From contig CAKMZV010000004.1 in NCBI GenBank assembly GCA_929200535.1, positions 40,654 to 104,653 on the forward strand: 64,000 nucleotides of DNA. Reading direction: 5' to 3'. This DNA comes from an uncultured Gammaproteobacteria bacterium. Its GTDB lineage: Bacteria > Pseudomonadota > Gammaproteobacteria > CAKMZV01. A program made the translations under genes and the position numbers. Position 1 is the first letter of the stretch, and every line of letters begins with the position of its first letter. Below, piece after piece: positions 1,841 through 45,656 of the stretch. The notes beneath the pieces were generated by a model that saw only the letters and a list, made by a program, of their open reading frames with translations, searched no databases and was not told where the DNA came from.

Positions 1841-2107
1841 TGAGGTGATTTTTGATTTGGTATTTATAAGAGTGTTTATGATTATCTCTTGTAAAATTGT
1901 AATATGAAAGGATACTTCTATTAAATATGACTCGTGTAAAAAAGCGAAAAACTTTCCCCAATGTCGTTGAAAAAAATGGCAATAGAATGGTTATTACTCA
2001 CTTTTTCCGTCTCATTGGGAATAATTTTTCATCTTTTTTCTATCGTCCCATATCTAATAGAAGTAGCCTAAAGTGATTTTTATAACCTTTAAATAAAAAT
2101 TAGAACA

Positions 2108-7957: not shown

Positions 7958-8116
7958 GAGACCTTTGCATAAAAGTATGGCAAAAGAAAAAAGATAAAAA
8001 ATCGTTCTGATTGAGGCGTGAAACGCAGCTAATACGTCCGTCTTCGCAAGTTTCACAACGATAATCAGGACGTTTTTTTACTTTTTTACTTGTCGTATCT
8101 TTTGTGCAAAGGTCTC
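7958..8116. mobile_element. MITE-like palindromic repeat, copy A (inverted orientation relative to the other full copies)
   Basis: Begins GAGACCTTTGCA and ends TGCAAAGGTCTC, with about 45-bp terminal inverted repeats. Internal GTGAAAC...GTTTCAC hairpin core. The same sequence recurs at 15184, 22335, 25101 and 44136. Confidence 0.8.
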
Positions 8117-13312: not shown

Positions 13313-13364
13313 TTTCACGTCTCAATCAGAACGTTTTTTTCTTTTGTCTTTATACAAAGGTCTC
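13313..13364. repeat. partial MITE copy B (right-arm fragment ending ...CAAAGGTCTC)
   Basis: TTTCACGTCTCAATCAGAACGTTTTTTTC...TACAAAGGTCTC matches the right arm of the full copies. Confidence 0.55.
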
Positions 13365-15183: not shown

Positions 15184-15412
15184 GAGACCTTTGCACAAAA
15201 GATATGACAAGTAAAAAAAGTAAAAAATTGCCCTGATTCTCGTTGTGAAACTTGCGAAGACGGACGTATTAGCTGCGTTTCACGCCTCAATCAGAACAAT
15301 TTTTTATCTTTTTTCTTTTACCTGCAAGCAGTTCAAACACTGTTACTCTAAAGCTCGCAAGCTTGCCAAGAGTAAAAACGTTTTTTGTGCCATACTTTTA
15401 TGCAAAGGTCTC
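15184..15412. mobile_element. MITE-like repeat, copy C (left arm + hairpin module 1 + hairpin module 2 + right arm)
   Basis: Begins GAGACCTTTGCACAAAAGATATGACAAGTAAAAAAAG and ends CATACTTTTATGCAAAGGTCTC. Holds both the GTGAAAC/GTTTCAC module and the GTTACTCT/AGAGTAAC module. Confidence 0.8.
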
Positions 15413-17006
15413 AATCTATGACATTGGCTCGTAAAAACAAGATGAGTTCGGTGTTCTTCTTTTCAGTTGAACTAAATCCAACGAAACCACCACTGCCAGG
15501 GCTGTGTTGTGATTGTTTATCATCCTTATTTTGAATAAGTCCACCAATAACAGCAACTTCATTGGGTTGAATATGTAATACAGATTCCAACTCTCTTTCT
15601 CTAAGCACTGGGATTGGACTTACGATGTCGTTTTTTGCCAACTCTGGGTGCGGATCATTAACAAAATTGAAAATCCTGGAGATTGTCGGCTTGAGGTTAA
15701 TAATAAGTGAATTGTCTGGTAGGATATTGGCTGTTAAGGTAATCACTAAACCAACAGAAATAGATTTGGCTTGTGTCTCAAATGAGACACTACTGCCAGA
15801 GGTGTTTTGTAGTGTTTTTGCTTTGATTGTAAAATAAACCACATTATCAACGACCTTTAATAAAGCAGTTTGATTATTGATAAGTTTGATTTGTGGCGAG
15901 GAAAGTACCTTGGTATCACCAAATTTTTCAATTAACCTTGCACCAAAATTTAGGCTGATGCCATCTAAAACAGCGGTAATATTGGTAATAACTCTGGGGG
16001 CAGCACCAAGATTCGCCCCAATGGCTTGTTGTGATATGCTGTTATTATCCTCAAAAATACTCCAATCAATGCCCGCCTGATATTGATCATTTAATTCAAC
16101 TTCCATAATTGCCATTTCAATATGTGTTTGGCGTCGTGCTTGTTGGTTTATTTTTGTTAATATGCTTTTGACTTGTTTATGAAGAGCCTGTTTTCCATAG
16201 ACTGAAATAATCCCAGTTTCTGGATGAACCAGAATTTGCACTTCATTGTTAGTTTGTTGTGCTTGGGTGTTGTTAAGTTTTGTCGAGGACAAGGAAAGAA
16301 TGTTGTTTGTGGCTGGGATTTTTTGATAGACAGTGCTTAAGGTAGATAACATTTTTTCCAAGCGACCCCAAAAAATGTTTTTAGATTCATTGGTGATTTC
16401 AACACTTGCTCCGGTATTTTGATTATTTTGTGTTGAGCCAATATTTTGACTAAAGCGTGTTTTGCTTAAGCTACTTCGTTTTATATTGGGGTAATTGACG
16501 GCATATTCTTTCCAATAAGCTTTGTCGTAGGTAACAACAAGAGAACGTTTATTAAGGGTAAATCGAGTGTTGGTAAGTTGAGCAAGATCTTGTAAAACAT
16601 CAGACAACGGCGTTTTTAAAGCTCGATAATGTTTTACCATAATCGTTTTTGAGGTGTTGTTTCGATAGCCAAAATTATAGCTTTTACTTAACCCATCAAG
16701 AGCTTTGTTGAGACTAATTTTTTCAAAATTAAGGCTAATAATGCGTTGCCAAAATGGGTCTTTTTTATGTGATTTTGCTTTTTTAAGTGAAGAGTTCTGC
16801 TTTCTGATTGGGGTGGCTTTTAGATAGGATTGTGTGATTGATTTTGAGGCAGTTGAATTTTTTTCTGTCCATTTTGGAGCTTGCCATTCTTTAATATTAG
16901 GGCGTTCAACTGGCACACACGCAAATAATGTGAAGCAAATAAGACTTGCTTTAACCTTAAATAAGGTTGTTTTTAAAGTTCTATAGATTGAGTAAGGAGC
17001 AAGCAA
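15411..17006 (-). CDS. secretin-family lipoprotein (MshL/PilQ-like type II/IV pilus secretin)
   Basis: N-terminal lipobox (LFACV). C-terminal secretin-like motif (PVLRERELESVLHIQPNEVAVIGGLIQN...). Confidence 0.65.
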   Translation of the reverse strand: MLAPYSIYRTLKTTLFKVKASLICFTLFACVPVERPNIKEWQAPKWTEKNSTASKSITQSYLKATPIRKQNSSLKKAKSHKKDPFWQRIISLNFEKISLNKALDGLSKSYNFGYRNNTSKTIMVKHYRALKTPLSDVLQDLAQLTNTRFTLNKRSLVVTYDKAYWKEYAVNYPNIKRSSLSKTRFSQNIGSTQNNQNTGASVEITNESKNIFWGRLEKMLSTLSTVYQKIPATNNILSLSSTKLNNTQAQQTNNEVQILVHPETGIISVYGKQALHKQVKSILTKINQQARRQTHIEMAIMEVELNDQYQAGIDWSIFEDNNSISQQAIGANLGAAPRVITNITAVLDGISLNFGARLIEKFGDTKVLSSPQIKLINNQTALLKVVDNVVYFTIKAKTLQNTSGSSVSFETQAKSISVGLVITLTANILPDNSLIINLKPTISRIFNFVNDPHPELAKNDIVSPIPVLRERELESVLHIQPNEVAVIGGLIQNKDDKQSQHSPGSGGFVGFSSTEKKNTELILFLRANVID

Positions 17007-18340: not shown

Positions 18341-19897
18341 ATGCAAAAAATTTTAAATTCAAATAAATATCTAAACTACTCACTTATACTACTGCTTATT
18401 AGCGTGGGGTTGCGCTTTGGGGTGGCGTATGATTTGCCACTAACGGCGGATGAGGCACATTATGCACTCTATGCACTTCATCTTGATTGGAGTTATTTTG
18501 ATCATCCTCCTATGGTGGGCTGGTTGCAATCCATCGTACTTTCTATAGGTATAGGGTCTTCTGAATTTGTTTTAAGGATTGTACCGAATGTTTTACACTT
18601 TTTAATAGGTGTGGCACTATATTTTCTGTCCTTACGTATATACCCTAAACATCCTTTAGTGGGATTTTTTGCGGTTATTCTATTTGCGTTTTCCTTAATG
18701 TTCCAGTTAATGGGTATCGTTATGCTACCAGATACTCCCTTATTACTTTTTACCATCTTAAGTATTTTTTCTTTTGAGAGGGCGTGTAATACAAACCAAT
18801 GGCATTCTTGGTTGTTATATGGCATCTTTTTAGGGTTAATGGGGCTTTCAAAATATACTGCCATTCTTATTGCCTTAGGTTATTTTCTTTGGATTTTATT
18901 TAATCAGCCCAAGCTTTTTTTAAATATTAAGTTATGGTTTTCGGCAATTCTTGCAGTAATTATTATTAGTCCAGTGATTTTTTGGAATATTGAAAATGAA
19001 TGGGCTTCTTTTCTATATCAAATCGAGCATAGTAATGTGGAGGGTAGTCAATGGTCTTGGCTATCATTCTTTCGAGCGCAAATGATAAATGTATTGTCAT
19101 ACGGTTTCTTCTTGTTTGTTGGTCTATGGCTTTTTATTGTCATTACAATTAAGAAGTTTATAAAAGTAGTGTGTACGAAATATAAAATAAAAAAAGAGCT
19201 AAATAATAGCACTCATAAAAACCTGACACCGTGTGATGTACAAAATCTTATTAAGTTTGTTGTTTTAATTTATTTTTTTGTTTTTGTGTACTCCAGTGCC
19301 CAAGGTGGGCATTATTTGCCCCATTGGGTCTCTCTTCCTTTTATCTTATTAATGCCTTGGCTTGCAGGAAAAATTATTGGTGGGCAATGGCAATATAAGT
19401 TTGAGGGAAGTAAAAAGAGCGTATTGGCAATTGGAAGCATTATTATTTTACTCATACCCTTTGTGCTTGCGGCAACCTTATTAGCGGGGAAATTAGGAAC
19501 TCAAGCAACTTATGAAGCATGGAGGGGAGTTATTGGCTGGCAAGAAAGCACACTTCGTGCTAAACAAATTATTGAGGAAGATAGTTCGCTACCGCCAAAT
19601 ACACCAATCTATGTTGCCAATTGGTCAGAAGCCAGTCGGGTTGCTTGGTATGCACATCCAACTCCGGTACTTCCTATTGATAACCGAACTGATCAATTTG
19701 ATTTTTGGTTTAACTCAGCTAATTTAGAATCCCAAGGGGTAAATTTCATTCAAAGAGGCATTCTCTTAGCACCACTAAATCATGATGAACTAAAACAAGC
19801 AATGAACACATTTAAGAAATGTAATTTATTACAAAAAATAAATTATTCTAAATTCTCTCAAAACTTCTCTTTTGGATTATGGGATTGTTTGCCGTAA
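18341..19897 (+). CDS. ArnT/PMT-like glycosyltransferase (GT39/GT83 family), probable lipid A or glycan modifier
   Basis: About 11 TM segments. N-terminal loop motif (DEAHYALYALHLDWSYFDHPPMVGWLQ), typical of this family. Confidence 0.65.
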   Translation: MQKILNSNKYLNYSLILLLISVGLRFGVAYDLPLTADEAHYALYALHLDWSYFDHPPMVGWLQSIVLSIGIGSSEFVLRIVPNVLHFLIGVALYFLSLRIYPKHPLVGFFAVILFAFSLMFQLMGIVMLPDTPLLLFTILSIFSFERACNTNQWHSWLLYGIFLGLMGLSKYTAILIALGYFLWILFNQPKLFLNIKLWFSAILAVIIISPVIFWNIENEWASFLYQIEHSNVEGSQWSWLSFFRAQMINVLSYGFFLFVGLWLFIVITIKKFIKVVCTKYKIKKELNNSTHKNLTPCDVQNLIKFVVLIYFFVFVYSSAQGGHYLPHWVSLPFILLMPWLAGKIIGGQWQYKFEGSKKSVLAIGSIIILLIPFVLAATLLAGKLGTQATYEAWRGVIGWQESTLRAKQIIEEDSSLPPNTPIYVANWSEASRVAWYAHPTPVLPIDNRTDQFDFWFNSANLESQGVNFIQRGILLAPLNHDELKQAMNTFKKCNLLQKINYSKFSQNFSFGLWDCLP

Positions 19898-21390: not shown

Positions 21391-21659
21391 GCAAACAAAT
21401 GCTAAGGTTGCAAGCAGAGATATTTTGTTTCAATCTCTCTACGAGTCATATTTAATATAGGTAGTCTATAGTAATAACACTCTACCAAATTTAACTTAAG
21501 AATTATTATATGTTGTTACCCTAAGCCCTCGTCCTTGTCATGCAGTATTCTCCTTCTTTGTCATCCTGAATTTATTTCAGGCTCTAACCAATCTTCAGTT
21601 ACCCTATGTGTTAAACGTAGAAAATTTAGTTGGAACCGTGTATGTTATAATTATTCTTT

Positions 21660-22220
21660 ATGGAACAAGATACTTTAAATAAACCATCTAAATCTCGAAA
21701 AAAAACAACATTCACCGTTACAGAAGATAAGGTGATTGATTTGTTAATGCACGTTGCTACCAGAGATGAAGTCAATAGTTCTCGCAACGAATTAAGGGCG
21801 GAAATTGCTGAAGTACGCATTGAACTAAAGGCAGATATAGCCAATTTAGATTCTAAAATTGAAGCTGTTCGGATTGAATTAAAAACAGAGATTGCTGAAG
21901 TACGCACTGAACTAAAGGCAGATATAGCCAATTTAGATTCTAAAATTGAAGCTGTTCGGATTGAATTAAAAACAGAGATTACTGAAGTACGTACTGAACT
22001 AAAAGCAGAGATTGATGCTTTACGCACTGAACTAAAAGCAGATATAGCAAGCTTAGATTCTAAAATTGAGGGTGTACGCACAGAACTAAAAGCAGAGATT
22101 GATGCTTTACGTGAAATGTTCCAAGAACTTAACGGACGTCTTGTGACGATCGGTATTGCACTATTTGTGTTATCTTTGGGTTCTTTTTTAATGCCTCTTG
22201 CTCTTAAGTTGTTTTTTTAA
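21660..22220 (+). CDS. tail-anchored coiled-coil protein with 11/18-residue (29-aa) tandem repeats
   Basis: EVRIELKADIANLDSKIEAVRIELKTEI repeated in tandem. C-terminal hydrophobic anchor (LVTIGIALFVLSLGSFLMPLALKLFF). Confidence 0.6.
   Translation: MEQDTLNKPSKSRKKTTFTVTEDKVIDLLMHVATRDEVNSSRNELRAEIAEVRIELKADIANLDSKIEAVRIELKTEIAEVRTELKADIANLDSKIEAVRIELKTEITEVRTELKAEIDALRTELKADIASLDSKIEGVRTELKAEIDALREMFQELNGRLVTIGIALFVLSLGSFLMPLALKLFF
21805..22110 (+). repeat. 87-bp tandem repeats (two near-identical units plus degenerate third) inside coiled-coil CDS
   Basis: ATTGCTGAAGTACGCATTGAACTAAAGGCAGATATAGCCAATTTAGATTCTAAAATTGAAGCTGTTCGGATTGAATTAAAAACAGAG recurs with one or two substitutions. Confidence 0.8.
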
Positions 22221-22334: not shown

Positions 22335-22492
22335 GAGACCTTTGCACAAAAGATATGACAAGTAAAAAAGCAAAAAATTGCCCTGATTTTCGTTGTGAAA
22401 CTTGCGAAGACGGACGTATTGGCTACGTTTCACGCCTCAATCAGAACAATTTTTTATCTTTTTTCTTTTGCCATACTTTTATGCAAAGGTCT
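22335..22492. mobile_element. MITE-like repeat, copy D
   Basis: Same left arm, GTGAAAC...GTTTCAC core and right arm as copy C, without hairpin module 2. The track ORF 22355-22588 is just a translation of this repeat. Confidence 0.8.
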
Positions 22493-22590
22493 CTTATTAA
22501 TTTTTTAACTTACTTGCCCGTGTTTTCTTTATCAATCAAGCCCTATCCTCGTGAGGATTATTTTTTGAATAATTTAGTATTTATTTAACT

Positions 22591-25100: not shown

Positions 25101-25249
25101 GAGACCTTTGCACAAAAGATATGACAAGTAAAAAAGTAAAAAACGTCCTGATTTTTATCCGCAAGCAGTTCAAACACTGTTACTCTAAGGCTCGCAAATT
25201 CACCAAGAGTAAAAACGCTTTTTGTGCCATACTTTTATGCAAAGGTCTC
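25101..25249. mobile_element. MITE-like repeat, copy E (left arm + hairpin module 2 + right arm)
   Basis: GAGACCTTTGCACAAAAGATATGACAAGTAAAAAAG ... GCAAGCAGTTCAAACACTGTTACTCTAAGGCTCGCAAATTCACCAAGAGTAAAAACG ... CATACTTTTATGCAAAGGTCTC. Confidence 0.8.
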
Positions 25250-25543: not shown

Positions 25544-28500
25544 ATGGTGGAAGCTCTTACCTTTCAAGAAATTATCACACGTTTAAATTACTTTTGGCAA
25601 CAAAAGGGATGCGTGCTGATTCAGCCCTTGGATATGGAGGTTGGGGCAGGTACTTTTCATCCGGCGACTTTTTTGCGTGCGATTGGTCCTGAGCCATGGC
25701 GTTGTGCCTATGCTCAACCTTCGCGTCGTCCTACGGATGGTCGCTTTGGAGATAATCCTAATCGATTACAGCATTATTATCAATATCAAGTCTTACTAAA
25801 GCCAGCCCCAGATAATTTGCAGGCGTTATATTTACAATCTTTGCAGGTAGTGGGCATAGATTTATCGAAAAATGATGTTCGTTTTGTTGAGGACAATTGG
25901 GAATCGCCAACCTTAGGGGCTTGGGGTTTAGGCTGGGAGGTATGGCTTAATGGTATGGAGGTAACACAATTTACTTATTTCCAACAAGTTGGTGGTTTGG
26001 AGTGTAAACCGGTGAGTGGTGAATTAACGTATGGTTTGGAACGTCTTGCAATGGCTTTGCAGGGGGTTGATAATGTGTATGACTTAGTATGGACTACCTA
26101 TGATAATACGACTATTTCGTATCATCAGGTATATCATCAAAATGAAGTTGAGCAATCACAATATAACTTTGAACTTGCTGATGTTGAAAATCTTTTTCAG
26201 CAATTTGAAAAATGCTATCAAATTTGTGGTGAATTGGTTAAAAAAGAACTCCCCTTGCCAGCGTATGAGCAAGTGATGAAGGCTTCTCATTTTTTCAACT
26301 TATTAGATGCGCGCAAGGCAATTAGCGTGACTGAAAGACAACGCTATATTTTTAGAGTGCGAGAATTGGCGTATCAAGTTGCCAAGAGTTATTCACAAAA
26401 ACGTGAGCAATTGGATTACCCATTAGGGATGATAGAAACCACTCATAAAAAGAATGATAGGGAAGTAGCACCTAATAAGTTGCTTGATATAAAAACAGGT
26501 GATTTTGTATTGGAATTAGGATGTGAAGAATTGCCTATGGATTCAGTATTGCCTCTTGGTAAAGGATTAAAAGATGGGTTTAAGAATGTTTTAACAGAAG
26601 TAGGGTTGTTTTTTGAAGACATTGTAATGTATGCAACTCCAAGGCGTTTGGCAGTGAAAATTTCAGGTCTAAATGCGATGCAAGAGGGGAGTCGGAATAA
26701 ACGCAAAGGTCCTCGTTGCGATGCTCCTGAAAAAGCACGAGAGGGTTTTGCACGCAGTTGTGGAGTATCAATCAATGATTTACGTACTGAAACAATATCT
26801 AATGTAGATTATTTAGTTTATGATGAGGTCGTTGAAGGTAGGCATTTTAGTGCATTACTCCCAGAATTATTAGAATCAATTATCAGTAGATTACCATTGA
26901 AGAAAACAATGCGATGGGAAGAAAATGAGTATCAATTTGTCCGCCCTGTGCGTTGGATAGTGGCACTTTTCAATGACTGCGTTATGCCTGTTGTGTTTTT
27001 TGGTTTGAAGGCAGATCAATATACCTATGGTCATCGTATGGACCCGCTTGCTAGTAATCAAGAGGGGGTGAAAATTGAGTTAGGAAATGCTGCGGACTAT
27101 GAGGCAACGCTTAAACAACATTCGGTAATCGCAAGCTTTACCGAACGAAGAGCAATTATTTTACAGCAATTAGAAGAACAGGCAAGTCAAAATTCAGCTA
27201 AAGTGAATATGGATGAAAATTTGCTTAATCAAGTAACTGCCTTAAATGAATTCCCAACGGTAATAACTGGTGCTTTTCCAAATCGGTTTTTATCTTTACC
27301 CAAAGAATGTTTAATTACGACCTTACAAACGCATCAAAAATATTTCACCCTCAGTGATCAATTAGGTCAATTACTTCCAATGTTTTTAACCGTTTCAAAT
27401 TTACCGAGTGAAGATTTGAGTTTAGTTAGAAAGGGGAATGAACGAGTTGTTATTCCTCGGCTTGAGGATGCTGAGTTTTTTTGGCAACAAGATAAGAAAC
27501 GTCCGTTGCAAGATTATTTTGAAAAATTAGATTCTGTGGTATTTGTTGAAGGTTTAGGAACAATGCAGCAAAAAGCCCAACGGATTGAAAAATTGGCTCT
27601 TTGGATGGCACAATTTTTACAACAAGATTCTGATAAAATTCAGCGAATTTGCAAGTTGATAAAATGCGATTTGGTAACTGATATGGTGAATGAATTTCCT
27701 GAATTGCAAGGCATTATGGGGCAACACTATGCACTTGAAAATGGTGAATTACCAGAGGTTGCAGAAGCTATCGCAGAGCATTATTTACCAAAACAAGCAC
27801 AAGGGGAACTACCATCCTCTATGCTTAGTGCGATTGTTGCTATTGCCGATAAAGTGGATACCATTGTAGGCATTCATATTGTCCAAAAAGAACCAAGTGG
27901 TAGTAGTGATCCTTTTGGACTAAGGCGTGCGGCTCTTGGGGTAATGCAAATTATTGTAGATCAAAAAATACATTTAAATTTACAAGAACTGTTAACAAAA
28001 TCAATTGACAACTGGCAAAATCAATTGCAGGAAGAAAAGCAATTAGAGGTGTTATCTAAGGTTGAGACTTTTATGTGGGGGCGTTTATATGCTTTATACA
28101 CCAAAGAGAAGCAAGTGCCGGCACCACTCTATCAAGCTGTGATGGCGGTTAAACCATTAAATCCTTATGAGTTTGAGCTTCGTCTTATTGCAGTGCAAAA
28201 ATTTGTCAAACTACCAGAAGCAAAATCATTGAGTGAAACGAATACACGCATTAAAAATATTTTGCAAAAGAATCCTAATGATCAGGGTGCTTTGGTTGAT
28301 GAGGGCTTGTTACATATTGAAGAAGAAAAAGAGCTGTATGTTTGTTTGCAAAAGGTAGAGGAAAAAATCCAACATATTACGAACGATTATTTTACTATTC
28401 TTGAAGCATTAAGTGAGCTGGCTGAGCCTGTGGAGCAGTTTTTTTCCAATGTAATGGTGATGGATGAAGATCTTGCAAAACGCAAAAATCGCCTTGCGTT

Positions 28501-28561
28501 ATTATCTCAATTACGTCAATGTTTTATGCCAGTAGCTGATATATCATTATTGCAATTATAA
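25544..28561 (+). CDS. glyQS: glycine--tRNA ligase, fused alpha (GlyQ) and beta (GlyS) subunits
   Basis: N-terminal 300 aa is GlyQ-like ([34 protein letters not shown]). The remainder is GlyS-like. Single 1005-aa ORF. Confidence 0.85.
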
Positions 28562-34170: not shown

Positions 34171-34199
34171 CTTTTGCCATACTTTTATGCAAAGGTCTC
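34171..34199. repeat. partial MITE right-arm fragment (copy G)
   Basis: CTTTTGCCATACTTTTATGCAAAGGTCTC is identical to the 3' arm of the full copies. Confidence 0.6.
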
Positions 34200-43081: not shown

Positions 43082-44008
43082 ATGAATAAGAAAAATCTAA
43101 TTTTATGGGTCGTTTTAGGACTACAAGTTGTATTAGCTAGTGTTTTTGTATTTCAAGAATCAGGATTATCAAAAAAAGATAAAGGAGGTTTTGTATTTGC
43201 TAATAATGCAGATGCGACTCTTGCTGATGAGATAACAATTGTTTCATTAGATCAAAAAGATAAACCACTCACTCTGAAAAAAGAGGGTAACCAGTGGAAT
43301 ATTAGCGAGCTTATCAAAGCTAGTAATTCTAAGGTGACTGAAGCTTTAAATAAAATACGCGACATCAAACCCTCTTGGGCAGTGGCAACAACAAAAGAAA
43401 GTCATAAACGCTTTGAAGTTTCCAAAGAGAAATTTCAACGCCAAATTACTTTGGCTATTGATGGAGAAAAATATACATTCTTTCTTGGAACTTCGCCAGG
43501 CTATCGACAAGCTCATGCACGTATGGCTGGTTCTGATAACGTTTATGCTGTGCAACTTAATGTTTTTGAGTTTTCCACCGCTCAAGATGATTGGTTGGAT
43601 ACAGAGCAGCTACAGATAAAAGAAGAAATAACCTCAATTCAAGTAACTGACTATGAATTTACATTAACCGATGGTAAGTGGACAGTAAATGATTTAAGGG
43701 GTTCAAATTCATCTCAAAATCAAGAGACGCCTTCGACTACCAGCACACAAACAAAGCAAGTTGTGGCTGAACGAGCTAATGATATAGCTGATGCATTAAA
43801 AAATTTACAATTGATTAGCGTTAGTGAACGCACAAACATTGATAAGCCAAGCGAGAAACTGGTTATAAAAACCAAAAAATCAGAAATTGTTTTGTTGCTT
43901 TTAGCGACTGATGAAGGATATAAGCAGATTCAACGAAAAGGCGATTCTATAGTGTATGGCGTGACTCAAGATACTTACAATAGCCTCTTGCCTGTACCAA
44001 AAAAATAA
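43082..44008 (+). CDS. DUF4340-like protein (GldG-associated)
   Basis: N-terminal TM/signal, about 300 aa, immediately downstream of the GldG-like gene. This neighbourhood is typical for DUF4340. Confidence 0.45.
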   Translation: MNKKNLILWVVLGLQVVLASVFVFQESGLSKKDKGGFVFANNADATLADEITIVSLDQKDKPLTLKKEGNQWNISELIKASNSKVTEALNKIRDIKPSWAVATTKESHKRFEVSKEKFQRQITLAIDGEKYTFFLGTSPGYRQAHARMAGSDNVYAVQLNVFEFSTAQDDWLDTEQLQIKEEITSIQVTDYEFTLTDGKWTVNDLRGSNSSQNQETPSTTSTQTKQVVAERANDIADALKNLQLISVSERTNIDKPSEKLVIKTKKSEIVLLLLATDEGYKQIQRKGDSIVYGVTQDTYNSLLPVPKK

Positions 44009-44135
44009 CCTTTTTTGTTATAACACATATATTATTTTCGTCGTTGCGAGGGAGTAGGGTTGCCACGTTTTTCTCGTACTAACGTGATATTTTCAGAGTT
44101 CTTTTATTTGCTTCCAGAATCGTGGGAACAATCTG

Positions 44136-44431
44136 AAACCTTTGCACAAAAGATATGATAAGTAAAAAAGTAAAAAATCGCCCTGATTTTTATTCGCAAG
44201 CGCTTCAAACGCTGTTACTCTAAGGTTCGTAAACTCACCAAGAGTAAAAACGCTTTTTGTGTTGTGAAACTTGCGAAGACGGACGTATTAGCTTCATTTC
44301 ACGCCTCAATCAGAATAATTTTTTATCTTTTTTCTTTTACCTGCAAGCAGTTCAAACACTGTTACTCTAAGGCTCGCAAGCTCGCCAAGAGTAAAAACGT
44401 TTTTTGTGCCATACTTTTATGCAAAGGTCTC
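44136..44431. mobile_element. composite MITE-like repeat, copy H (left arm + module 2 + module 1 + module 2 + right arm)
   Basis: About 296 bp. Begins (GA)AACCTTTGCACAAAAGATATGATAAG and ends CATACTTTTATGCAAAGGTCTC. Carries two copies of the GTTACTCT/AGAGTAAC module flanking one GTGAAAC/GTTTCAC module. Confidence 0.8.
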
Positions 44432-44537
44432 AATCTGTGAAATAAATATTATTTTTTCGGTGGTTTTCGTCTTATCTTATAACAATATTAAAAGCCATTT
44501 TTCCTAAATTGTTTAACAAATATTATTTTTTACCATT

Positions 44538-45656
44538 ATGCACACATTTCAATTATTTTTTCGTATTATCTCGATTGTCAGAGTAACGGTCATTTTTACT
44601 CTATCATTTTTAGTGATAAGCTGTGGGAGTTCATCAAGTTCTGGGTCTGGGGAAACAACAACCCTTATGCCTTCAGTGGGTTATTGGAATGGAAAAGCGA
44701 CTATAAACTTTTCAGAAAATAAAGATATTCATGCGGGCGTTTTTAAGAGTGAAGGGGAATATTATTTGGCTATAATGGATGAGGCATCAACGATCAGAAG
44801 TTCTTTGAGTTTGTTGAATTTGAGAGGTAGTGAATTGTCGAGTTCAGCTTGTAGTTCACAGTCGGAAGATATGGCCTCTTGTTCAGTCAAAACAGCCCTT
44901 GCTTCCAGCAATAATATGATTGGCACCTATACATACACCCTGATAGGAGGCACCCAAAAGATTGTTCAACTGAATATCAGCAAGAAAAATGACACGGTAA
45001 ATAATATGTCCTTGCCAGTGCAAAAAAGCGTTTTTGTTGATGTTCAGAATGAAACGACGATGAGTATTACTAAGGATAGTAGCTTTAGTATTACCTTTGG
45101 TGGAGAAATCTTTGAGAGTACAGCAATAAAAATTTCTGATAATATTTTGCAGATTACTGAGGCTAAGGTTGACTCAAACTCTTCCACAGAAGTTGATTTT
45201 TTTATGGCATCATTGGATCATTTAAGTGGGGATAGCTCTAAGCTAATTTTTATTAGCTTGTTTAATATAGGGAATTTATCAAAACATGGGGAGGCTGCAG
45301 GATGGGACTTTAATATTGCAACCAATACGATTGTTGCCGCTTACAATGCAGGAAAAAAATGGTATGAAGATGGAATAGTTTCTGTTGCTGGTTCAAGAAA
45401 TTGCTCTAGTTGCCATGGTATTACTGGGGGTGGTGGTAGCGGCCCTGCTCTTAAAGGTAATTCAAAAGCTCAATCAGATCTTGCTATAAATGCTATTTTA
45501 ACTGGTCCAGGTTCAATGGCAGCATTTAGCAACCAATCAAATAAGGTTATTTCAGAGCTTGCAACGTATTTGCGTCATGCGTGGGGAAACTCACCTACTG
45601 CTGCTACAAATTATGTTGCTACTGAGTCTGAGGTTCAAGATAAAAGAGCACCGTAG
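44538..45656 (+). CDS. lipoprotein with C-terminal class I cytochrome c domain
   Basis: Lipobox (LVISCGSSSSSG). Ser-rich N-terminal domain of unknown type. C-terminal CSSCHG heme-binding motif with downstream Met (PGSMAAFS). Confidence 0.55.
   Translation: MHTFQLFFRIISIVRVTVIFTLSFLVISCGSSSSSGSGETTTLMPSVGYWNGKATINFSENKDIHAGVFKSEGEYYLAIMDEASTIRSSLSLLNLRGSELSSSACSSQSEDMASCSVKTALASSNNMIGTYTYTLIGGTQKIVQLNISKKNDTVNNMSLPVQKSVFVDVQNETTMSITKDSSFSITFGGEIFESTAIKISDNILQITEAKVDSNSSTEVDFFMASLDHLSGDSSKLIFISLFNIGNLSKHGEAAGWDFNIATNTIVAAYNAGKKWYEDGIVSVAGSRNCSSCHGITGGGGSGPALKGNSKAQSDLAINAILTGPGSMAAFSNQSNKVISELATYLRHAWGNSPTAATNYVATESEVQDKRAP

What the first reader, a model, noticed from the sequence alone, without database searches (positions are those of the whole stretch)
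44136..44431. Composite 296-bp copy shows the repeat family is built from shuffled hairpin modules
Copy H is arranged left arm, hairpin module 2, hairpin module 1, a second hairpin module 2, right arm. Module 2 is GCAAGC...GTTACTCTAAGG...CAAGAGTAAAAACG. Module 1 is GTGAAACTTGCGAAGACGGACGTATTAGC..TTTCACGCCTCAATCAGAA. Copy D has only module 1, copy E only module 2, and copy C has 1 followed by 2. In copy H the two module-2 units differ by several substitutions (GCGCTTCAAACGCTG vs GCAGTTCAAACACTG). This points to old recombination or iterated insertion rather than recent duplication. The architecture resembles BOX/RUP mosaic repeats.
Basis: seen in the sequence. Interest (0 to 1): 0.6.

Follow-up and report, generated by a model that had tools for sequence, protein, structure and literature searches.

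The report
Composite copy of a miniature transposon
The 297-bp repeat is a composite copy of a small non-autonomous transposon (a MITE with IS5-type ends) that carries the family's normal core plus two old, diverged copies of an extra 70-bp segment; this is a tidy but ordinary example of how such elements diversify.

Summary
Window 44135-44431 (297 bp, one base longer than reported) reads left arm, module 2, module 1, module 2, right arm. It is flanked by a perfect 5-bp duplication, AATCT.

The family is a MITE. Its inverted tips (GAGACCTTTGCA...) are those of IS5-family insertion sequences. Across 41 copies, 16 have perfect 5-bp target-site duplications, against 1 of 820 in controls.

"Module 1" is not a shuffled module. 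It is the core of a canonical 159-bp element that aligns over its whole length with copies in Thiotrichaceae, Thiomicrorhabdus and Cocleimonas genomes. Only module 2 is optional. It sits at two fixed internal sites and was never seen alone.

A second copy with the same architecture and the same four junctions lies at an unlinked locus in a sibling assembly and is 96% identical to H. The composite is therefore a propagated subfamily. Within one element the two module-2 units differ at 10-13 of 75 positions. Between elements, units at the same site differ at only 1-2, so the doubling is old.

Neither module folds better than shuffled sequence, so "hairpin module" overstates them. The likeness to BOX/RUP is generic only.

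Verdict: a new member of a known kind, of modest interest.

The parts
44130..44134 (+). Left target-site duplication, AATCT
   Evidence: Identical 5-mer at 44432-44436.
44135..44188 (+). Left arm of copy H: the IS5-type tip GAAACCTTTGCACAAAAG followed by the subterminal arm ending CCCTGATT
   Evidence: Aligns with the left arm of copies B, C, D, E, I, J and K. The tip matches IS5-family ends.
44189..44261 (+). Module 2, left-site unit (M2a)
   Evidence: 1 difference from the K left-site unit and 7 from E. 12 differences from the right-site unit of the same element.
44262..44307 (+). Module 1: the core of the canonical 159-bp element
   Evidence: Colinear with canonical copies B, D, I and J, and with elements in other genera.
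44308..44338 (+). Right subterminal arm (AATCAGAATAATTTTTTATCTTTTTTCTTTT), the inverted partner of the inner part of the left arm
   Evidence: Inverted repeats I8, I14 and I15; alignment.
44339..44407 (+). Module 2, right-site unit (M2b)
   Evidence: 2 differences from the right-site units of C and K. Same junctions as in C and K.
44408..44431 (+). Right tip, GCCATACTTTTATGCAAAGGTCTC
   Evidence: Identical in copies B, C, D, E and H and in the solo end at 34176-34199.
44432..44436 (+). Right target-site duplication, AATCT
7958..8116 (-). Copy B, canonical 159-bp element (module 1 only), TSD AATAT
15184..15412 (+). Copy C, 229 bp: canonical element plus M2b (15320-15388). No TSD. Its terminal TCA supplies the TGA stop of the secretin gene on the minus strand
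22335..22493 (+). Copy D, canonical 159-bp element, TSD TTATT
25101..25249 (+). Copy E, 149 bp: left arm, module 2 (25154-25225), right tip. It lacks the core and the right subterminal arm
13313..13364 (+). 5'-truncated copy: end of the core plus the right arm
34171..34199 (+). Solo right tip

Best explanation
Copy H is a composite member of a MITE family, a non-autonomous DNA transposon with IS5-family tips.

**The canonical element.** Inference: an IS5-type DDE transposase supplied in trans recognises the GAGACCTTTGCA tips and inserts the element with a 5-bp target-site duplication.

**The extra segment.** In this organism's lineage an unrelated 70-75-nt segment ('module 2') became fixed inside the element at two positions. 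One lies just after the left arm (after CCCTGATT). The other lies between the right subterminal arm and the right tip (between CTTTT and GCCATAC).

**Origin of the architectures.** This step is also inferred. Illegitimate recombination or template switching between subfamilies probably produced four forms:
- core only (B, D, I, J)
- core plus right module 2 (C)
- module 2 only (E)
- module 2, core, module 2 (H, K)

**Spread.** The tips stay intact, so the composite remained mobile and spread as a unit. That explains why H and K sit at unlinked loci with identical junctions. The element is most likely selfish DNA with only incidental effects on neighbouring genes.
For: **MITE anatomy.**
- The tips occur 10 times in the window and never in shuffles.
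- 16 of 41 copies across the window and related genomes have perfect 5-bp flanking duplications, and 20 have at most one mismatch. The offset control gave 1 of 820. H has AATCT on both sides.
- The element ORFs hit no Pfam family, and the window has no Rfam hit.

**IS5 link.**
- The same 12-15-nt tips are listed for ISPg1, ISNme1 and the MITEs BrickBuilt and ATR in PMC4596501.
- A 1249-bp 'IS5-like element ISAba23 family' copy on Moraxella osloensis plasmid NZ_CP024444.1 has the tips GAGACCTTTGCACGAA. It encodes a DUF772 + DDE_Tnp_1 transposase.

**Module 1 is the canonical core.**
- Four 158-159-bp copies in this genome have only module 1.
- 159-bp copies in Thiotrichaceae, Thiomicrorhabdus and Cocleimonas MAGs align colinearly with them, at 76% mean column identity.

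**Fixed junctions.** E, H and K share the left junction. C, H and K share the two right-site junctions. E shares the module 2 / right tip junction.

**The composite was propagated.**
- K (L069:9958-10256, also L070) is 288/299 identical to H at a different locus.
- Module-2 units at the same site differ by 1-4 of 75. Left-site and right-site units differ by 10-15.

**Related genomes show the same behaviour.** Other internal inserts of 52, 64 and 129 nt define subfamilies. The subfamilies with the 52-nt and 64-nt inserts have several copies at different loci, some with their own TSDs. One element is nested inside another.
Against: - No autonomous IS with these tips was found in this organism or in the 54 related loci.
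- TSDs of the ISAba23-like copies were inconclusive: 2 of 11 were perfect 5-mers.
- K, C and E lack perfect TSDs.
- No empty site or presence/absence polymorphism of any copy was seen among strains. Copies B, C and H are fixed in assemblies that are 99.5-99.7% identical.
- How module 2 entered is unknown. It has no TSD, no inverted ends and no detectable source.
- All sequence comes from short-read metagenome assemblies, and contigs often break inside these repeats. SNP-level detail could therefore be mixed between copies.
Confidence: 0.78

Rival explanations
1. Module 2 is itself a tiny independent mobile element, a second nested mini-MITE, that inserted twice into the host MITE. On this view H is a nest, not a recombinant.
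For: - Nesting does occur in this family. At L012:871-1257 one 159-bp element sits inside another, right after CCCTGATT, with a TATTC duplication.
- In the M17 Thiotrichaceae MAG a 63-64-nt insert is flanked by a duplicated TA. This is my reading of the sequences.
Against: - Module 2 has no terminal inverted repeats and no TSD beyond 1 nt at either site (and inspection).
- The four window units are homologous over all 75 nt, including the T-rich edges.
- It was never found outside the MITE in about 92 kb of this genome. It was absent from the metagenome contig collection.
- The left-site and right-site units form two distinct lineages, not a set of near-identical recent insertions.
Confidence: 0.12
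2. This is a BOX-like mosaic repeat: independent hairpin modules assembled in variable order and number, with a structural RNA or DNA role such as a terminator, mRNA stabiliser or protein-binding site.
For: - Copy number and order of module 2 vary among copies.
- The whole element folds better than shuffles: z -3.5 on the + strand and -6.8 on the - strand.
- One base pair in module 2 shows a compensatory change.
Against: - Individual modules fold no better than shuffles.
- The consensus structure of six module-2 units is weak, at -9 kcal/mol with a covariation term of -0.36 and some broken pairs.
- No terminator-like site lies in the region, and the three promoter-like sites all lie outside H.
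- No Rfam family matched.
- Module 1 is never absent except in E and never duplicated.
- The two module-2 units in H and K are not tandem.
- TSDs and IS5-type tips show transposition.
Confidence: 0.05
3. The composite encodes a real small protein. The open frame through module 2, module 1 and module 2 was annotated as a 120-aa gene at locus K.
For: - One frame is open through 85 codons of H.
- The same 58-aa ORF is present in C and H.
- A 120-aa ORF is called at K in two assemblies.
Against: - No Pfam match.
- Only one homologue cluster was found among 5.8 billion proteins, and it is the K copy.
- Differences between the two module-2 units are mostly non-synonymous in that frame. This is my codon-by-codon reading.
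- The start codon is uncertain, and the K ORF runs out of the element and overlaps the next gene.
Confidence: 0.03
4. The composite is an artefact of short-read metagenome assembly through a repeat family.
For: - Contigs from several samples end inside these elements (L058, L059, L062, L068).
- The same GCTGCG/GCTTCA dimorphism appears at both the H and K loci in different assemblies. This could be read cross-talk.
Against: - H has the same architecture in two independent assemblies that differ by 25 SNPs in 7.1 kb.
- K has it in two further assemblies.
- The unique flanks are continuous on both sides, and H has a perfect TSD.
Confidence: 0.03

Closest known systems
ATR (AT-rich repeat) MITE of Neisseria meningitidis and its proposed parent ISNme1 (IS5 family)
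   Same: - The same terminal inverted repeat: GAGACCTTTGCAAAA for ISNme1, GAGACCTTTGCA[C/T]AAAAG here (PMC4596501).
- Small, AT-rich, intergenic and non-coding, with a similar order of copy number.
   Different: The host is a different class of bacteria.
- No module-2-like optional segment is reported for ATR in the text I read.
- The size and TSD of ATR were not checked here.
BrickBuilt and MITEPgRS/MITE464 of Porphyromonas gingivalis
   Same: - IS5-type tips identical or within one base (GAGACCTTTGCA / TGCAAAGGTCTC).
- A MITE whose interior carries an extra variable repeated segment.
- No transposase remnant (PMC4596501).
   Different: - Their variable part is a tandem minisatellite of 23-nt or 41-nt units between distinct leader and tail segments.
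- Here the extra part is a single 70-nt unit at two separate sites around a conserved core.
- Their TSDs are irregular. Here they are 5 bp.
ISAba23-like IS5-family insertion sequence (example on Moraxella osloensis plasmid NZ_CP024444.1)
   Same: 16-nt tips GA[G/A]ACCTTTGCACGAA, identical to the tips of many copies in related genomes and sharing the first 13 bases with the window copies.
   Different: - It is autonomous: 1249 bp with a 330-aa DUF772 + DDE_Tnp_1 transposase.
- Only the tips are shared, not the subterminal arms.
- Its TSD length was not established.
- It was not found in this organism.
BOX and RUP repeats of Streptococcus pneumoniae
   Same: Small intergenic repeat elements, with subfamilies that differ by presence and number of internal segments. 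RUP is a MITE.
   Different: - BOX is boxA, a variable number of tandem boxB units, then boxC. Here the repeated unit is not tandem and the core is constant.
- RUP has IS630-like ends and a TA duplication. Here the ends are IS5-type and the duplication is 5 bp.
ERIC/IRU elements with internal insertions, and long/short Correia elements (from my own knowledge)
   Same: A palindromic canonical unit of fixed length, with longer variants made by insertion of about 70 bp at specific internal sites and shorter variants made by internal deletion.
   Different: Unrelated sequence and hosts. Neither was compared here.

Membership tests
MITE (miniature inverted-repeat transposable element) | Terminal inverted repeats | tested here: met
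   The tips pair over 22 nt in all copies. In canonical copies the inverted arms extend to about 54 nt.
MITE (miniature inverted-repeat transposable element) | Target-site duplication of fixed length | tested here: met
   16 of 41 copies have a perfect 5-bp duplication, against 1 of 820 in the control. H has AATCT on both sides. C, E and K lack a perfect TSD.
MITE (miniature inverted-repeat transposable element) | Small size with no transposase gene | tested here: met
   Copies are 76-387 bp. ORFs through H and K have no Pfam hit.
MITE (miniature inverted-repeat transposable element) | Multiple dispersed copies at unlinked loci | tested here: met
   In about 92 kb of this genome: 8 full copies (B, C, D, E, H, I, J, K), one copy cut off by a contig end, and at least 2 fragments.
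MITE (miniature inverted-repeat transposable element) | An autonomous element with the same ends in the same genome or lineage | tested here: inconclusive
   None was found next to solo tips in 54 related loci. The whole genome could not be searched.
MITE (miniature inverted-repeat transposable element) | Insertion polymorphism (filled versus empty sites) between strains | tested here: inconclusive
   B, C and H are present in all assemblies that span them. More divergent strains have contig breaks at the elements.
IS5-family-derived element | Tips identical to those of IS5-family insertion sequences | tested here: met
   Published tips of ISPg1 and ISNme1. An annotated ISAba23-like IS5 element has GAGACCTTTGCACGAA tips and a DDE_Tnp_1 transposase.
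IS5-family-derived element | Same TSD length as the autonomous relative | tested here: inconclusive
   Only 2 of 11 distinct ISAba23-like copies show a perfect 5-bp duplication.
BOX element | Constant end modules with a variable number of tandem middle modules | tested here: not met
   The two module-2 units of H and K are separated by the core, and no tandem arrays were seen. Sequence similarity to BOX was not tested.
RUP element | TA target duplication and IS630-type ends (from my own knowledge) | tested here: not met
   5-bp duplications and GAGACC... tips.
REP/BIME (RAYT-associated palindromes) | Short palindromes without target-site duplication (from my own knowledge) | tested here: not met
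   TSDs are present. No RAYT search was done.
Any curated RNA family (Rfam 15) | Match at the gathering threshold | tested here: not met
   No match anywhere in the 64-kb window.

The most novel reading that the evidence does not exclude
Module 2 could be a functional cassette that the MITE captured and now distributes, for example a portable regulatory or protein-binding segment. Two points are compatible with this. Both module 2 / core / module 2 copies (H and K) lie in the same orientation, 106 and 103 nt upstream of lipoprotein genes. The canonical element is exactly 53 codons long and keeps one frame open in all four canonical copies of this genome. These may mean the family is shaped by selection for tolerated or useful insertion rather than being purely selfish.
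Probability: 0.06. Interest if true: 0.6.

Novelty: new member of a known kind. Interest (0 to 1): 0.3.

Why it matters
**What it adds.**
- It documents a MITE family I could not find described in the searchable literature.
- The family has IS5-type ends and a strikingly constant 159-bp unit.
- It is shared by uncultured sulfur-oxidiser-like Gammaproteobacteria (Thiotrichaceae, Thiomicrorhabdus, Cocleimonas relatives). A variant with the same tips occurs in a Desulfobacterales genome.
- It shows that composite variants with extra internal segments stay mobile.

**Practical consequences.**
- These elements break metagenome assemblies.
- They create spurious ORF calls of 58-120 aa.
- They can supply stop codons to neighbouring genes.

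**What it does not do.** It does not open a new mechanism.

Tried and rejected
- **Module 2 outside this organism.** An exact-pattern scan of the metagenome contig collection found nothing.
- **Module 2 as a diverged or inverted copy of the canonical interior.** Local alignments were no better than shuffles: 43-143 of 500 shuffles scored as well.
- **Modules as stable hairpins.** Rejected by folding against shuffles on both strands and by the weak consensus structure.
- **A parent IS next to solo tips in 54 genome loci.** Only ordinary genes were there. Many single hits were chance matches inside coding sequence.
- **The IS481-like element beside copy D in sample 3300034734 as the parent.** Rejected. 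Its tips (TGTAAAGGTTAG...) differ, and it is simply inserted into the MITE tip with a CCTTT duplication.
- **An empty site for H in relatives.** The downstream gene has no homologue outside this population. Divergent-strain contigs start inside the element.
- **Conserved open reading frames as evidence of coding.** About half of the copies in other genomes have some open frame, but not a consistent one.
- **Organism identity.** Accession searches in the literature found nothing. Cluster names carried no organism. The best named homologues of the secretin are Thiomicrospira and Thiomicrorhabdus at about 35% identity.
- **TSD length of ISAba23-like copies.** Inconclusive.

Full report
**What is at the coordinates.** Window 44135-44431 sits in a 530-bp gap between two plus-strand genes. 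Upstream is a DUF4340 protein gene ending at 44008. Downstream is a cytochrome-c-domain lipoprotein gene starting at 44538.
- left arm, 44135-44188
- module 2 (M2a), 44189-44261
- module 1 core, 44262-44307, with the right subterminal arm, 44308-44338
- second module 2 (M2b), 44339-44407
- right tip, 44408-44431

By comparison with other copies the element starts one base earlier than reported, making it 297 bp. It is bracketed by a perfect direct repeat, AATCT. All three diagnostic motifs recur in the window far beyond chance, with none in any shuffle. There is also a minus-strand canonical copy B (7958-8116) and two fragments (13313-13364 and 34171-34199).

**What kind of element it is.** The ends are inverted repeats beginning GAGACCTTTGCA. 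A scan of one genome per species found the same tips. They occur paired at short distance in MAGs labelled Thiotrichaceae, Thiomicrorhabdus, Cocleimonas, Piscirickettsiaceae and Desulfobacterales.

Across 41 paired-end copies, 16 have a perfect 5-bp duplication immediately outside the tips and 20 have at most one mismatch. An offset control gave 1 of 820. The Desulfobacterales copies show 6-bp duplications instead.

The family therefore has inverted ends, a fixed-length target duplication, small size, no coding capacity and dispersed copies. That is the anatomy of a MITE.

The tips are those of IS5-family elements:
- A published table lists GAGACCATTGCA for ISPg1 and GAGACCTTTGCAAAA for ISNme1. 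ISNme1 is the proposed parent of the Neisseria ATR MITE. The same table gives near-identical tips for the P. gingivalis MITEs BrickBuilt and MITEPgRS (PMC4596501).
- A weak DNA hit on a Moraxella osloensis plasmid turned out to be the end of an annotated "IS5-like element ISAba23 family" copy. It is 1249 bp, has tips GAGACCTTTGCACGAA, and encodes a DUF772 + DDE_Tnp_1 transposase.

I did not find such an IS in this organism or next to solo tips in the related loci. The TSD length of the ISAba23-like copies was not clear, with 2 of 11 perfect. Mobilisation in trans by an IS5-type transposase is therefore inferred, not shown.

**Module 1 is the canonical core, not a shuffled unit.**
- Four copies in this genome (B and D, plus I and J just outside the window on the same scaffold) are 158-159 bp and contain only module 1 between two roughly 54-nt inverted arms.
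- 159 bp is also the modal length in the other genera.
- Those copies align colinearly with the window's canonical copies over the full length, at 76% mean column identity.

**Module 2 is the only optional part.**
- Its four units in the window align without gaps over 75 nt.
- It occupies just two sites, and the junctions are identical wherever they occur. The junction left arm | module 2 is in E, H and K. Module 2 | core is in H and K. Right subterminal arm | module 2 is in C, H and K. Module 2 | right tip is in C, E, H and K.
- It has no inverted ends and no flanking duplication beyond one ambiguous base.
- It has no significant similarity to the canonical interior.
- It was never found alone in about 92 kb of this genome or in the metagenome contig collection.

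**The composite is a propagated subfamily.** I translated the open frame that runs through H and searched the protein collection. This found a single relative, a 120-aa ORF call. Its contig, from sibling MAG GCA_929200605.1, carries a 299-bp element, K. K lies between a peptidase M29 gene and a Kelch-repeat lipoprotein gene.
- K has the same arrangement, left arm, module 2, core, module 2, right tip. It is 288/299 identical to H.
- The same locus is present in an ENA assembly from sample SAMEA3913370. A contig 99.7% identical to the window region next to H was assembled from that same sample.
- Units at the same site are nearly identical across copies: H1-K1 differ by 1; H2-K2 by 2; H2-C by 2.
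- Left-site and right-site units differ by 10-15 of 75.

The doubling of module 2 therefore predates the spread of the composite. E's unit is intermediate, 7 differences from each type. That fits either an ancestral state or an E-type origin by deletion between the two direct units. Nine copies cannot decide the order of events.

Related genomes behave the same way. Other inserts of 52, 64 and 129 nt define subfamilies. The 52-nt and 64-nt ones have several copies at different loci, some with their own TSDs. One element is nested inside another just after CCCTGATT.

**Are the modules hairpins?** Only weakly.
- Each contains short dyads: TTACTCT/AGAGTAA and CAGT/ACTG in module 2, GTGAAAC/GTTTCAC in module 1.
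- Folding energies on either strand are within the shuffle distribution (z from -1.8 to +0.2).
- The consensus fold of six module-2 units is -9 kcal/mol. It has one compensatory pair and some broken pairs.
- The whole element folds better than shuffles (z -3.5 and -6.8). This is expected from its inverted arms.
- Simple scans found no terminator-like site in the region, and the only three promoter-like sites lie outside H. There is no Rfam match.

**Robustness.**
- H has the same architecture in an independent assembly from another sample that differs by 25 SNPs over 7.1 kb. Five of those SNPs fall inside the 297-bp element.
- B and C are unchanged in a JGI assembly that is 99.5% identical.
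- Contigs from other samples frequently end inside these elements. All data are short-read metagenome assemblies, so SNP-level statements about individual copies carry some risk of cross-copy mixing.
- The same GCTGCG/GCTTCA dimorphism in the core appears at both H and K in different assemblies. It may reflect gene conversion or that artefact.

**Organism.** The window is part of ENA scaffold COST21-1_SAMEA3913368_METAG-scaffold_4, which is 108 kb. GC content is about 36-37%. Its MshL-type secretin has one 58%-identical relative. After that the best matches, at about 35%, are Thiomicrospira, Thiomicrorhabdus and Hydrogenovibrio proteins. This points to an uncultured, rather isolated gammaproteobacterium. 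I could not name it.

**Verdict.**
It is a real composite of old, diverged units with fixed junctions. But it is a composite subfamily of an IS5-type MITE with one optional segment, not a family assembled from freely shuffled hairpin modules. Its likeness to BOX/RUP is only generic.
- I found no paper describing MITEs in these bacterial groups.
- It is a new member of a known kind.

Noticed in passing
L061:55-1103 (JGI 3300034734), corresponding to window 22335-22347: In another sample a 1049-bp IS sits inside the left tip of copy D. It encodes a 326-aa rve-domain transposase, has tips TGTAAAGGTTAG[G/C]TAATTCGCTGACAG, and is flanked by a CCTTT duplication. It is absent from the window, so it is a polymorphic and probably active IS. 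Its tip resembles the MITE tip read inwards (TGCAAAGGTCTC).
   Followed up: partly
window 1913-2065; solo ends near 21463 and 22268: A second repeat family, 153 bp long. Its interior aligns colinearly with the canonical 159-bp element, but its outermost ~18 nt differ (TACTTCTATTAAATATGA...). This looks like a swap of tips between families. It keeps the central AATAG...TATT dyad seen in other genera, which the window's canonical copies lack.
   Followed up: partly
window 15407-15413: The TGA stop codon of the MshL-type secretin gene (minus strand, 15411-17006) is formed by the last bases of MITE copy C plus one flanking base (TGAGACC). The insertion therefore defines the gene's present C-terminus.
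   Followed up: no
window 15413-15424 and 44432-44443: Copies C and H share 9 of 11 bases beyond their right ends (AATCT[A/G]TGA[C/A]A). In H, AATCT is its own target duplication, while C has no TSD. This suggests recombination or conversion between the two loci that ran past the element end.
   Followed up: no
window 7958-8116 and 22335-22493; L064:17444-17602 and 18941-19098: The canonical copies are 158-159 bp (159 bp = 53 codons), and all four in this genome keep the same frame free of stop codons. In other genomes about half the copies have some open frame, but not a consistent one. Annotators call ORFs of 62 and 120 aa in such copies.
   Followed up: partly
L058, L059 and L068 (start at about window 44379-44382); L062 (ends at window 15404 and 22402): Contigs from several samples and a deposited MAG begin or end inside these MITEs. 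The family is therefore a systematic assembly breakpoint in this organism.
   Followed up: no
window 44294-44296 and L069/L070:10118-10120: The same two-base dimorphism in the core (GCTGCG versus GCTTCA) separates assemblies at both composite loci H and K. It is also seen between other copies. The cause is either gene conversion among copies or read cross-talk in assembly.
   Followed up: no
window 21780-22106: 87-bp tandem repeats lie inside the 186-aa ORF 21660-22220. A more divergent strain (L062) carries about 100 bp of extra sequence there.
   Followed up: no
L002, L016 and L037 (Desulfobacterales MAG OY759308.1): A variant family with the same tips (GAGACCTTTGCACATAAT...) occurs many times in a 2.1-Mb Desulfobacterales chromosome. 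Its target duplications are 6 bp rather than 5 bp.
   Followed up: no
window 44431-44538 and L069:10256-10360: Both module 2 / core / module 2 copies lie in the same orientation, 106 and 103 nt upstream of genes whose products have lipoprotein signal peptides (VISC|G and IVAC|G). With only two cases this may be coincidence.
   Followed up: no
window 25544-28561: The glycine-tRNA ligase is a single fused alpha-beta protein of 1005 aa. Its best match is NCBIfam NF011499, at 1056 bits against a cut-off of 1244.
   Followed up: no
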